Source: the human T2T-CHM13v2.0 reference genome, Homo sapiens. From it: a stretch of DNA of 64,000 bases. Made by a program: the position numbers and the translations under genes. Location of the stretch: the NCBI GenBank assembly GCA_009914755.4, contig CP086569.2, positions 640,001-704,000 of the forward strand, written 5' to 3'. Of this stretch, positions 33,831 through 35,400 are shown piece by piece; the first letter of the stretch is position 1, and each line of letters begins with the position of its first letter. The notes under the pieces are model-generated. The model did no database searches. It was given only the letters and a program-made list of their open reading frames with translations, and was not told the origin of the DNA.

Positions 33831-34797
33831 TGAGACAAGGTCTTACTCTGTCCCCCGGGCTGGAGTGCAGTGGCTCGATCACGGCTCATTGCAGCCTCAA
33901 ATTCCTGGGGTGAAGCAATCCTCCCATCTCAGCCTCCTGAGTAGCTGGGATTACAGGCACGCACCACTCCTGGCTAATTGAAACTGGGAGACACAGGTTG
34001 CAGTGACCCGAGATTTTATAATAATTTTATAATTATTATAATTATAATTTAGCATAATGTTATAATCATAATTATTATTATTATAATTATAATAATGTTA
34101 TAATTATAATTATAATTATAATAATGTTATAATTATAATTATAATTATAATTATAATAATGTTATAATTATAATTATAATTATAATTATAATAATGTTAT
34201 AATTATAATTATAATTATAATAATGTTATAATTATAATAATGTTATAATTATAATTATAATTATAATAATGTTATAATTATAATAATGTTATAATTATAA
34301 TTATAATAATGTTATAATTATAATTATAATAATGTTATAATTATAATTATAATAATGTTATAATTATAATCATAATGTTATAATTATAGTTATAATAATG
34401 TTATAATTATAGTTATAATAATGTTATAATTATAATTCTAATTATAATAATGTTATAATTATAATTATATTTATAATTTTATTATAATTATAATTTATAA
34501 TAATATTTATAATTTTATTATAATTATAATTATAATTTATAATAATATTTATAATTTTATTATAATTATAATTATAATTTATAATAATTTTATAATTATA
34601 TTTATAAATTATATATTTTATATAATAAAATTATATTATAATTATAATTATAAATTATAATTTATACCACTCCTGGCTAATTTTATAATAATTTTAACAT
34701 TGAGGTTTCAGTATGGTACCCAGGCTGGTCTCGAACTCCCTGGCTCAAGCAATCCTCCTGCCTCAGGCCTCCCAAAGTGCTGGGATTACAGGTGTGA
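33831..34797 (-). mobile_element. Composite unit A: antisense Alu split by a short inverted Alu fragment and an AT-rich minisatellite (34016-34668)
   Basis: Alu right monomer (antisense) up to ggctaatt, then the sense-orientation Alu piece gaaactgggagacacaggttgcagtgacccgagatt, then an (ataattataataatgtt)-type minisatellite of ~650 bp, then Alu left monomer (antisense) from taccactcctggctaattttataataattttaacattgaggtttcagtatggtacccaggctggtctcgaactcc. Confidence 0.85.
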
Positions 34798-35400
34798 TGT
34801 TTATTTATTTATTTATTTGAGACGGAGTCTTGCTCTGTCGCCCAGGCTGGAGTGCAGTGGCACAACCTTGACTCACTGCAGCCTCCACCTCCTGGGTTCA
34901 AGCAATTCTCCTGCCTCAGCCTCCTGAGTAGCTGGGATTACAGGCATGCACCACTCCTGGCTAATTGAAACAGGGAGACAGAGGTTGCATTGAGCCGAGA
35001 TTTTATAATAATTTTATAATCATTATAATTATAATTAATAATAATGTTATAATTATAATTATTATTGTTATAATTATAATAATGTTATAATTATAATTTA
35101 TAATAATTTTACAATTATAATCATTATAATAATTTGATAATAATTATAATTATAATTATAATAATTTTATAATTATATTTATAAATTATATTATATATTT
35201 TATATAATAAAATTATATTATAATTATAATAATAAATTATAATTATAATTTATACCACTCCTGGCTAATTTTATGATAATTTTAACATTGAGGTTTCACT
35301 ATGGTACCCAGGTTGGTCTCGAACTCCCGGGCTCAAGCAATCCTCCTGCCTCAGGCCTCCCAAAGTGCTGGGATTACAGGTGTCAGCCACTGTGCCTGGC
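34798..35400 (-). mobile_element. Composite unit B: tandem duplicate of unit A with a shorter (~250 bp) minisatellite
   Basis: The same junctions recur: ggctaatt | gaaacagggagacagaggttgcattgagccgagatt | AT-rich VNTR (35003-35253) | taccactcctggctaattttatgataattttaacattgaggtttcactatggtaccc... Confidence 0.85.

What the first reader, a model, noticed from the sequence alone, without database searches (positions are those of the whole stretch)
33831..35400. Tandemly duplicated composite element: an Alu carrying an inverted Alu fragment and an AT-rich minisatellite
An antisense Alu is split between ggctaatt and tttataataattttaacattgagg by a sense-orientation Alu right-arm fragment (gaaac.gggagaca.aggttgca.tga.ccgagatt) and an (ataattataataatgtt)n minisatellite. 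The whole three-part unit then occurs twice in tandem, with all junctions shared but minisatellite lengths of ~650 bp versus ~250 bp. Duplication therefore post-dated assembly of the composite, and the VNTRs later diverged in length. AT-rich arrays of this size are candidate fragile or polymorphic sites.
Basis: seen in the sequence. Interest (0 to 1): 0.55.

Follow-up and report, generated by a model that had tools for sequence, protein, structure and literature searches.

The report
Old Alu-mediated duplication of an AT-repeat-bearing Alu
An ancient Alu whose middle had grown an AT-rich tandem repeat was later copied in tandem by an Alu-guided rearrangement; it is a well-preserved but ordinary piece of primate repeat history with no sign of function.

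Summary
At 33832-34797 and 34819-35400 two head-to-tail units each contain an antisense Alu. Each Alu is interrupted at its linker by a 36-nt sense AluS fragment and a 96-97% A+T array (650 vs 251 nt). All three internal junctions are identical in both units, and the units share a derived 3-bp deletion. The composite therefore formed once and was then duplicated.

- Each array is bracketed by a 31-nt direct repeat of host right-arm end plus linker. Its first copy is split by the AluS fragment, and a linker-derived 15-mer recurs inside the arrays. The array probably grew out of the Alu linker.
- Unit 2 is not a full copy. Its distal right arm is AluS-like and differs from unit 1's AluJ-like arm at 22% of sites, against 3.7% elsewhere.
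- The distal arm, its (TTTA)5 tail and the truncation of unit 1's left arm at Alu position 17 form a 120-150-nt patch. It is 93% identical, in inverted orientation, to an Alu-Alu junction at 32117-32305.

My preferred reading is one replicative duplication with two Alu-guided template switches. Tandem duplication followed by gene conversion is nearly as good. The length difference is mainly 14 extra, mostly perfect units in array 1. Fragility is unproven, and no outside sequence could be found. Interest is low.

The parts
32117..32305 (+). Upstream sense Alu-Alu junction: a 5'-truncated AluS right arm, an (AAAT)4AAA tail (32255-32273), CA, then a second Alu starting at position ~17. It is the likely donor of the patch at the unit boundary.
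   Evidence: 93% identity over 117 nt to 34799-34915 on the opposite strand. The 45-nt junction string occurs only at 32252-32296 (+) and 34777-34821 (-).
33686..33831 (-). Degenerate T-rich tract (TTTA/TTTCA-like), i.e. the expanded A-rich tail of the unit 1 Alu read on the plus strand.
   Evidence: TRF rows at 33686-33831; sequence.
33832..33979 (-). Unit 1 Alu right arm (antisense), AluJ-like.
   Evidence: Rfam Metazoa_SRP hit at 33830-33974 on the minus strand, E 8e-12. Best match is the AluJ consensus at 83.6%. AluJ state at 8 of 13 J/S diagnostic columns.
33963..34029 (+). First copy of the 31-nt direct repeat ACCACTCCTGGCTAATT / TTATAATAATTTTA. It is split by the 36-nt sense AluS fragment (33980-34015).
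   Evidence: Removing 33980-34015 restores an exact copy of 34666-34696.
33980..34015 (+). Sense-orientation AluS/Y right-arm fragment (consensus positions ~200-236), 36 nt, bounded by ATT microhomology.
   Evidence: It matches the S/Y consensus but not J.
34016..34665 (+). AT-rich array 1, 650 nt and 96.5% A+T. It has 16 AATGTT-initiated units (10 perfect AATGTT(ATAATT)nATAAT units of 17-35 nt) followed by a 42-nt-type 3' block.
   Evidence: TRF; unit parsing; ssDNA fold -143.7 kcal/mol vs -83.7 for shuffles, z = -19.7.
34666..34696 (+). Second, intact copy of the 31-nt direct repeat (host right-arm 5' end plus linker).
34697..34797 (-). Unit 1 Alu left arm (AluJ-like), cut off at Alu position ~17.
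34771..34925 (-). Junction patch, certain core 34798-34915. It comprises TG, the (TTTA)4TTT tail (34800-34818) and the AluS-like distal right arm of unit 2. The switch points lie within a 27-nt stretch (left arm) and a ~13-nt stretch (GGAGGCTGAG region) that are identical between the partners.
   Evidence: Three-way alignments; 9/139 differences from the upstream copy.
34916..34966 (-). Unit 2 proximal right arm, host-derived. It shares the 3-bp deletion and has 1 difference from unit 1.
34967..35002 (+). Unit 2 copy of the sense AluS fragment (4 differences from unit 1).
35003..35253 (+). AT-rich array 2, 251 nt and 97.2% A+T. It shares the first 79 nt and the 3' end with array 1.
   Evidence: fold z = -4.6.
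35254..35284 (+). Unit 2 intact copy of the 31-nt direct repeat (1 mismatch).
35285..35400 (-). Unit 2 Alu left arm (AluJ-like), complete to Alu position 2.
   Evidence: 96.9% identity to unit 1 over 129 nt.
35401..35453 (-). Extra partial Alu left monomer (linker plus positions ~87-143) abutting unit 2. It is the original downstream flank of the host Alu.
   Evidence: 'post' segment, 85% to AluJ positions 87-143; sequence.

Best explanation
This is a non-functional, multi-step repeat fossil in a primate genome. Steps marked 'shown' rest on the sequence; steps marked 'inferred' are my interpretation.

1. Shown: an old AluJ-type element sits antisense at this site.
2. Shown in structure, inferred in mechanism: its T-rich linker region gave rise to an AT-rich array. 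A 31-nt segment (right-arm 5' end plus linker) is present on both sides of the array. A linker-derived 15-mer recurs inside the array, and the core is a self-complementary hexamer (ATAATT)n punctuated by ATAATAATGTT. [quoted passage not shown]
3. Shown in structure, inferred in mechanism: a 36-nt piece of an AluS/Y right arm was inserted in sense orientation into the first copy of the 31-nt repeat. I read it as filler or templated DNA bounded by ATT microhomology.
4. Shown: the composite was then duplicated head to tail. The boundary is not a clean breakpoint. It is a 120-150-nt patch that matches, in inverted orientation, an Alu-Alu junction 2.5 kb upstream.
5. Inferred, about 45% likely: a single replication-based event (FoSTeS/MMBIR type) produced the duplication. 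The nascent strand copied the composite into its left arm. It then switched within Alu homology onto the inverted upstream Alu pair and copied across that pair's tail junction. Finally it switched back within Alu homology into the composite's right arm and copied the composite a second time.
6. Shown in structure, inferred in direction: array 1 later gained about 14 near-perfect units, and/or array 2 lost them.

Divergence of 3.7-6.5% implies the duplication is roughly 10-30 million years old. It is therefore probably fixed, and array length is the feature most likely to vary today.
For: - Identical junctions in the two units.
- Shared derived 3-bp deletion in the proximal right arm.
- 31-nt direct repeat restored exactly when the 36-nt fragment is removed.
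- Linker-derived 15-mer TTTATAATAATTTTA at 34015, 34578 and 34682, and at 35002 and 35097, against 0.25 expected per shuffled array.
- Array motifs found nowhere else in the window.
- Distal right arms differ at 22/98 sites against 9/246 elsewhere (Fisher p = 3e-7).
- Unit 1 carries the AluJ state at 8/13 diagnostic columns and unit 2 the AluS state at 9/13.
- The patch is 93% identical to 32158-32274 on the opposite strand, whereas other Alus reach at most 88%.
- The 45-nt tail/truncation junction is found only at 32252-32296 (+) and 34777-34821 (-).
- Both switch points fall in stretches identical between the partners.
- Patch age (6.5%) is statistically compatible with unit divergence (3.7%) (p = 0.22), as a single event predicts.
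- Ten perfect units in the array 1 centre.
- Literature: microsatellite births are enriched at the Alu middle A stretch (PMC3812793). Chimeric Alus between different subfamilies are attributed to template switching (PMC6902434).
Against: - No outgroup or pre-duplication allele could be obtained. The order and number of events therefore rests on parsimony only.
- Gene conversion of a pre-existing simple duplication junction by the upstream inverted Alu pair predicts the same final sequence.
- The patch is nominally more diverged (6.5%) than the units (3.7%). This could mean it is older than, or independent of, the duplication.
- The 31-nt flanking repeat could instead be a target-site duplication of an insertion.
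The in-window BLAST ranking supports them independently.
Confidence: 0.55

Rival explanations
1. A simple tandem duplication of the composite was followed by gene conversion. The upstream inverted Alu pair (32117-32305) overwrote the original duplication junction, importing the AluS distal arm, the (TTTA)5 tail and the position-17 truncation.
For: It yields the same final structure as the best explanation. The patch is bounded on both sides by Alu homology. Patch divergence (6.5%) is not equal to unit divergence (3.7%), so separate dates are allowed.
Against: It needs two events. It also needs the original breakpoints to lie entirely within the later conversion tract, since no other junction scar is visible. 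The tract would have to carry a heterology (tail plus truncation) across an inverted donor 2.5 kb away.
Confidence: 0.3
2. The fragment plus array is a retrotransposition (L1-mediated) insertion into the Alu linker. The flanking direct repeat is its target-site duplication, and the AT array evolved from the A-rich tail of a severely 5'-truncated AluS. This rival concerns the origin of the composite, not the duplication.
For: The insert is flanked by a direct repeat: 17 nt if the fragment is counted as part of the insert, 31 nt if not. The fragment is sense-oriented with the array on its 3' side. The fragment is AluS-type, unlike the AluJ host.
Against: The Alu 3' end (consensus ~237-282) is missing between the fragment and the array. 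The plus-orientation target reads GC|ACCA, not the TT|AAAA L1 endonuclease site (consensus recalled from memory). The 14 nt after the fragment are identical to the host linker after the second repeat copy. This fits a split local duplication better than a tail.
Confidence: 0.12
3. The composite is a member or seed of a dispersed or satellite-like Alu+AT-rich family (as in HSat1B/DYZ2 or the 22q11 TBTA units). The two copies would then be the start of a satellite-type amplification.
For: It resembles those families in architecture, with Alu fragments plus AT-rich repeats in tandem units. The sources are bioRxiv 10.1101/2021.07.12.452052 and PMC5906017.
Against: There are only two units. The array motifs and junctions occur nowhere else in the 64-kb window. 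The junction has no match in the metagenome or prokaryote-genome collections, though this is weak because those collections hold little primate DNA. Here the array is inside the Alu rather than beside it, and no HSATI-like segment is evident.
Confidence: 0.04
4. The two composites formed independently, or the duplication is an assembly artefact.
For: None beyond the general difficulty of assembling AT-rich repeats.
Against: Three identical idiosyncratic junctions and a shared 3-bp deletion exclude independent origin. The units differ by 3.7% substitutions, have different array structures and are joined by a distinct chimeric boundary, which is not what a collapse or expansion artefact looks like.
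Confidence: 0.02

Closest known systems
Tandem repeats born from the Alu middle A-rich linker or poly(A) tail (e.g. the FXN GAA repeat in an Alu linker; DAB1/SCA37 ATTTC in an Alu; CNBP/DM2 CCTG from an AluSx)
   Same: The repeat array sits exactly at the linker of an Alu. It is flanked by linker-derived sequence and contains linker-derived motifs. The literature describes the linker as a hotspot of microsatellite birth (PMC3812793, PMC3378579, PMC13125401).
   Different: The product here is a 96% A+T nested hexamer/minisatellite of 17-35-nt units rather than a pure 3-5-nt microsatellite. It carries an inverted 36-nt Alu fragment at one edge. No gene or disease context is known.
Alu-Alu mediated rearrangements with chimeric Alus, and template-switch (FoSTeS/MMBIR) complex duplications
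   Same: There is a chimeric AluS/host Alu at the duplication boundary. Both switch points lie in short stretches of identity. A short inverted segment from 2.5 kb away is inserted at the junction. PMC6902434 and PMC4352052 describe chimeric Alus and iterative template switches.
   Different: This is an old, apparently fixed event of about 1 kb seen in a reference-type sequence, not a de novo pathogenic CNV. The pre-event allele is unavailable, so the mechanism is inferred.
AT-rich minisatellites of rare fragile sites (FRA16B 33-bp unit; FRA10B)
   Same: It is a very AT-rich tandem array with strong predicted single-strand hairpin formation (z = -19.7). FRA16B DNA forms secondary structure and stalls replication (PMC2875025).
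   Different: The unit shows no specific similarity to the FRA16B unit (score 35 vs shuffled maximum 36). The length of 650 nt is comparable to normal FRA16B alleles, whereas expressed alleles have up to 2000 copies (PMC2875025).
Palindromic AT-rich repeats (PATRR) and the HSATI/Alu/AT-rich units of 22q11 (TBTA) and HSat1B
   Same: Alu fragments are associated with AT-rich, self-complementary sequence and repeated in tandem (PMC5906017; bioRxiv 10.1101/2021.07.12.452052).
   Different: The array is polar: the ATAATAATGTT motif occurs 21 times on the plus strand and never on the minus strand. The best inverted arms are only 79% complementary, so it is not a near-perfect palindrome. No HSATI segment is seen, the host is AluJ, and there are only two copies.

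Membership tests
Alu SINE (7SL-derived dimer) | 7SL-related monomers | tested here: met
   Rfam Metazoa_SRP hits on the minus strand at 33830-33974 and 34817-34961 (E 8e-12, 1e-13; below the gathering score, as expected for Alu monomers).
Alu SINE (7SL-derived dimer) | Left and right arms joined by an A-rich linker, plus a 3' A-rich tail | tested here: met
   The linker remnant TAATTTTATAATAATTTTA follows the second 31-nt repeat copy. T-rich tails lie at 33686-33831 and 34800-34818.
Alu SINE (7SL-derived dimer) | Target-site duplications flanking the whole element | not tested
   The flanks are an expanded tail and another Alu monomer (35401-35453), so no clean TSD could be read.
AT-rich minisatellite / VNTR | Head-to-tail units of 10 nt or more with high A+T | tested here: met
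   TRF periods 6/23/29/46. Parsed units are 17-35 nt. A+T is 96.5% and 97.2%.
AT-rich minisatellite / VNTR | Length polymorphism among individuals | not testable with these tools
   No human or primate assemblies were reachable. Scans and look-ups found nothing. The only evidence is paralogue length divergence of 650 vs 251 nt.
Rare fragile-site AT-rich minisatellite (FRA16B/FRA10B type) | Expansion to multi-kb length (up to ~2000 copies) on expressing chromosomes | tested here: not met
   The arrays are 650 and 251 nt in this sequence. The threshold is taken from PMC2875025.
Rare fragile-site AT-rich minisatellite (FRA16B/FRA10B type) | Secondary-structure-forming strand | tested here: met
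   ssDNA MFE is -143.7 kcal/mol against -83.7 ± 3.0 for shuffles (z = -19.7). Array 2 gives z = -4.6. This is in silico only.
Rare fragile-site AT-rich minisatellite (FRA16B/FRA10B type) | Sequence relationship to the 33-bp FRA16B unit | tested here: not met
   Local alignment score is 35, against a mean of 30.9 and a maximum of 36 for shuffled arrays.
PATRR (palindromic AT-rich repeat) | Near-perfect palindrome of several hundred bp | tested here: not met
   The best inverted arms are 173 nt at 79% complementarity. The punctuating motif is on one strand only.
Alu-Alu mediated rearrangement / template-switch duplication | Chimeric Alu at the novel junction | tested here: met
   The unit 2 right arm is host-like proximally (shared 3-bp deletion) and AluS/upstream-like distally.
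Alu-Alu mediated rearrangement / template-switch duplication | Breakpoints within stretches of identity between the partner sequences | tested here: met
   The switches fall within a ~13-nt and a 27-nt stretch that are identical in all three aligned sequences.
Alu-Alu mediated rearrangement / template-switch duplication | Comparison with the pre-rearrangement allele, showing a single event | not testable with these tools
   No orthologous or alternative allele could be retrieved.
HSat1B / TBTA (HSATI + Alu + AT-rich composite repeats) | Presence of an HSATI satellite segment | not testable with these tools
   No HSATI consensus was available. The papers hold no sequence.
HSat1B / TBTA (HSATI + Alu + AT-rich composite repeats) | Many copies (satellite or LCR-dispersed) | tested here: inconclusive
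   There are two copies only in the window. The metagenome and prokaryote-genome collections gave 0 hits, but they are poor proxies for a primate genome.
L1-mediated (TPRT) insertion, for the fragment plus array | Target-site duplication, 3' poly(A) and a TT|AAAA cleavage site | tested here: inconclusive
   A direct repeat is present, 17 or 31 nt. There is no poly(A), only the AT array. The plus-orientation site reads GC|ACCA (the L1 endonuclease consensus is recalled from memory).

The most novel reading that the evidence does not exclude
The hairpin-forming AT-rich array itself triggered the rearrangement. In this reading a replication fork stalled or broke at the array. It was then rescued by two Alu-guided template switches through an inverted Alu pair 2.5 kb away. 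That would leave a fully legible evolutionary 'fossil' of an MMBIR-type event, and a two-unit Alu+AT-rich structure that is the first step towards an HSat1B-like composite satellite.
Probability: 0.2. Interest if true: 0.4.

Novelty: new member of a known kind. Interest (0 to 1): 0.2.

Why it matters
It matters modestly. The locus is a clean worked example of two known processes acting in series. The first is birth of an AT-rich tandem array from the linker of an Alu. The second is an Alu-guided complex duplication whose junction still shows both switch points and the donor sequence. Such fossils help calibrate how often replicative template switching, rather than simple unequal crossing-over, shaped primate genomes. 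They also show how Alu+AT-rich composite satellites might begin. In practice, the two arrays, and possibly the unit copy number, are plausible length-polymorphic sites that short reads will misalign. There is no evidence of function, of cytogenetic fragility, or of a new kind of element.

Tried and rejected
**External comparators (all failed)**
- A metagenome-contig scan for the Alu/fragment junction found 0 matches.
- A metagenome-contig scan for a unique 24-mer 120 nt downstream found 0 matches.
- A genome-contig scan for the junction found 0 matches.
- Exact look-ups of four local ORFs found none on record.
- One homology search with seven concatenated flank ORFs gave no hit at E <= 0.001.
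- The locus therefore could not be mapped. No orthologue, second haplotype or known structural variant could be examined.

**Locus identification**
- Listing ORFs across the window showed only Alu- or VNTR-derived reading frames.
- A full-text search for the array motif turned up only an unrelated chr10 AT-rich deletion.

**Hypotheses rejected**
- A simple unequal crossover between the host right arm and a downstream AluS. It predicts an intact AluS after unit 2. The sequence instead shows the complete left arm followed by a partial left monomer.
- The sense fragment as a fold-back copy of the host's own right arm. It is AluS-type while the host is AluJ, and it matches its own arm only 16/20 and 17/22.
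- The neighbouring Alus at 32976-33590 as donors of the unit 2 arm. The BLAST ranking puts only 32158-32274 above the generic Alu level.
- Relationship to FRA16B, PATRR and the other AT-rich arrays in the window.
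Full report
**1. What is there**

The window is primate DNA, rich in Alus and tandem repeats, with no evident coding gene. Between 33686 and 35453 the plus strand reads as follows:

| Coordinates | Feature |
|---|---|
| 33686-33831 | T-rich degenerate tail |
| 33832-33979 | antisense Alu right arm (unit 1) |
| 33980-34015 | 36-nt sense Alu fragment |
| 34016-34665 | 650-nt array, 96.5% A+T |
| 34666-34696 | 31 nt of Alu right-arm end plus linker |
| 34697-34797 | rest of the left arm, ending at Alu position ~17 |
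| 34798-34799 | TG |
| 34800-34818 | (TTTA)4TTT tail |
| 34819-34966 | second antisense right arm (unit 2) |
| 34967-35002 | the same fragment |
| 35003-35253 | 251-nt array |
| 35254-35284 | the same 31 nt |
| 35285-35400 | complete left arm |
| 35401-35453 | partial extra left monomer, followed by unique sequence |

Rfam's SRP model hits both right arms on the minus strand. BLAST against the window's other Alus independently confirms the Alu nature of all parts, including the 36-nt fragment (E 1e-8).

**2. Checking the observation**

The three internal junctions are letter-for-letter identical in the two units. The first junction occurs only twice in 64 kb even with three mismatches allowed, against zero expected by chance. 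The repeat finder gives two diagonals with offsets 987 and 588. Their difference of 399 nt is the array length difference.

**3.

The string CCACTCCTGGCTAATT occurs four times, once on each side of each insert. Deleting the 36-nt fragment from the first copy restores ACCACTCCTGGCTAATTTTATAATAATTTTA. That is exactly the 31-mer following the array in unit 1, and it differs by one base in unit 2. So each array lies between two copies of host sequence (right-arm 5' end plus mutated linker), and the AluS fragment interrupts the first copy with ATT microhomology at its edges.

The 15-mer TTTATAATAATTTTA from the linker recurs inside both arrays, against 0.25 expected per shuffled array. The array motifs occur nowhere else in the window.

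My reading is that the array grew in place out of the Alu linker after a small local duplication. The linker is a documented hotspot of microsatellite birth (PMC3812793).

A target-site duplication of an inserted, 5'-truncated AluS with a mutated tail is the alternative. It fits less well for three reasons. The Alu 3' end is missing. The plus-strand target is GC|ACCA. The 14 nt after the fragment are host linker sequence.

**4.

The shared parts of the units differ at 9/246 sites (3.7%). The distal ~100 nt of the right arms differ at 22/98 sites (Fisher p = 3e-7).

In a four-way alignment, unit 1 carries the AluJ state at 8 of 13 J/S diagnostic columns and unit 2 the AluS state at 9 of 13. The proximal ~55 nt share a derived 3-bp deletion.

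BLAST of the unit 2 distal arm plus tail finds one outstanding match: 93% over all 117 nt, on the opposite strand, at 32158-32274. Other Alus reach at most 88%. That upstream site holds a 5'-truncated AluS right arm with an (AAAT)4AAA tail, followed by CA and a second sense Alu beginning at position ~17. This arrangement is naturally explained by one Alu inserting into the tail of another.

The 45-nt string across that junction occurs only there and, reverse-complemented, at 34777-34821, differing at one base.

Three-way alignments show where unit 2 changes partner. It is host-like up to CTCAGGAGGCTGAG and upstream-like from there to the tail. Unit 1's left arm becomes host-like again within a 27-nt stretch identical in all copies. 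The unit boundary is thus a 120-150-nt inverted patch from 2.5 kb away, bounded on both sides by Alu homology.

**5. Mechanism of the duplication**

Two scenarios give exactly this sequence.

- **Single replicative event (preferred, about 45%).** The event has two template switches. Synthesis runs through the composite into its left arm. It jumps onto the inverted upstream Alu (homology: left arm), copies back across that tail junction into the AluS right arm, and jumps again (homology: right arm) into the composite's right arm. It then copies the composite a second time. This needs one event. It explains the truncation at position 17, the TG, the short perfect tail and the AluS arm together. 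It matches the literature's view that chimeric Alus between different subfamilies arise by template switching, and that short inverted insertions occur at duplication junctions (PMC6902434, PMC4352052, PMC11293582). Patch divergence from its donor (6.5%) is statistically compatible with the unit divergence (3.7%; p = 0.22).
- **Plain tandem duplication, then gene conversion (about 30%).** The junction of a simple duplication was later overwritten by gene conversion from the upstream pair. I cannot exclude this without an outgroup.

A simple crossover with a downstream AluS is rejected because no such Alu follows unit 2.

Jukes-Cantor distances of 0.038-0.068 give roughly 9-34 Myr, depending on the rate assumed. 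This is a rough inference. It implies the duplication is old and probably fixed.

**6. The arrays**

Both arrays start with the same 41 + 38 nt and end with related 3' blocks. Array 1 has 14 additional AATGTT(ATAATT)nATAAT units, ten of them perfect, of 17, 23, 29 or 35 nt. Adjacent units share private variants such as ATAGTT, which indicates turnover after the duplication.

The hexamer core is self-complementary. As single-stranded DNA, array 1 folds at -143.7 kcal/mol against -83.7 ± 3.0 for shuffles (z = -19.7). Array 2 gives z = -4.6.

The array is nevertheless polar: ATAATAATGTT occurs 21 times on the plus strand and never on the minus strand. Its best inverted arms are 79% complementary, so it is not a PATRR. 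It has no specific similarity to the FRA16B unit. Its size is that of normal FRA16B alleles, not expressed ones (PMC2875025). Length polymorphism is plausible, and cytogenetic fragility is not indicated. Neither could be tested.

**7. Comparison with known things**

The locus works like two things: Alu-linker-derived tandem repeats, and Alu-Alu mediated template-switch duplications. It meets the features of both that I could test.

It resembles the Alu+AT-rich composite units of HSat1B and of the 22q11 TBTA only in architecture (bioRxiv 10.1101/2021.07.12.452052; PMC5906017). Membership could not be tested, and the copy number is two.

**8. Limits**

Every attempt to obtain the locus from elsewhere failed. 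The order of events, the age and any polymorphism are therefore inferences from one sequence. The subfamily consensus sequences are from memory.

**9. Verdict**

The feature is real and accurately observed, and its history is more intricate than 'tandem duplication'. It is still an ordinary product of known repeat dynamics. I score it as a new member of a known kind with low interest (0.2).

Noticed in passing
window 32108-32598: Sense Alu pair: a 5'-truncated AluS right arm with an (AAAT)5-type tail, then a second Alu starting at position ~17 with its own long (AAAT)n tail. It is the inverted paralogue, and likely donor, of the unit 1/unit 2 boundary.
   Followed up: yes
window 35401-35453; also 5285-5722, 25564-25900: A partial extra Alu left monomer abuts unit 2's complete left arm. 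Elsewhere in the window, Alu left-monomer-sized tandem arrays occur (135 nt x3.2 at 95%; 141 nt x2), suggesting recurrent arm-to-arm unequal exchange in this region.
   Followed up: partly
window 42733-44064: A 1.3-kb array with 14% GC made of TATATCTATA-type units. The units change polarity around 43640-43700, at an ATCGACATATCGATATAT core. Inverted arms are only 72-75% complementary, so it is palindrome-like but imperfect.
   Followed up: partly
window 62013-63047 and 60245-60482: Further AT-rich minisatellites (24/26-nt units over ~1 kb; 28/56-nt units). They are not Alu-associated and are unrelated in sequence to the arrays of the finding.
   Followed up: partly
window 41086-41368: A 32-nt unit repeated 8.8 times at 99% identity: a very young or actively homogenised VNTR.
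   Followed up: no
window 29828-30886 and 54825-55802: Two large-unit GC-richer VNTRs: 339 nt x3.1 and 170 nt x5.8, both 95% identical. The second has 61% GC and long open reading frames running through the repeats.
   Followed up: no
window 26365-27608; 52650-53442: A ~1.2-kb degenerate (AGAT)n tract, and a 158/322-nt tandem repeat of about 5 copies. The latter's consensus looks L1-ORF2-derived to me from memory, which I did not test.
   Followed up: no
window 33686-33831: The tail of the unit 1 Alu has grown into a 145-nt degenerate TTTA/TTTCA-like tract, whereas unit 2 has a perfect 19-nt (TTTA)4TTT.
   Followed up: no
window 33980-34015 vs 34967-35002: Four of the nine substitutions separating the two units fall inside the 36-nt sense Alu fragment (11% vs ~2.4% elsewhere). 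The sample is small and the cause unknown.
   Followed up: partly
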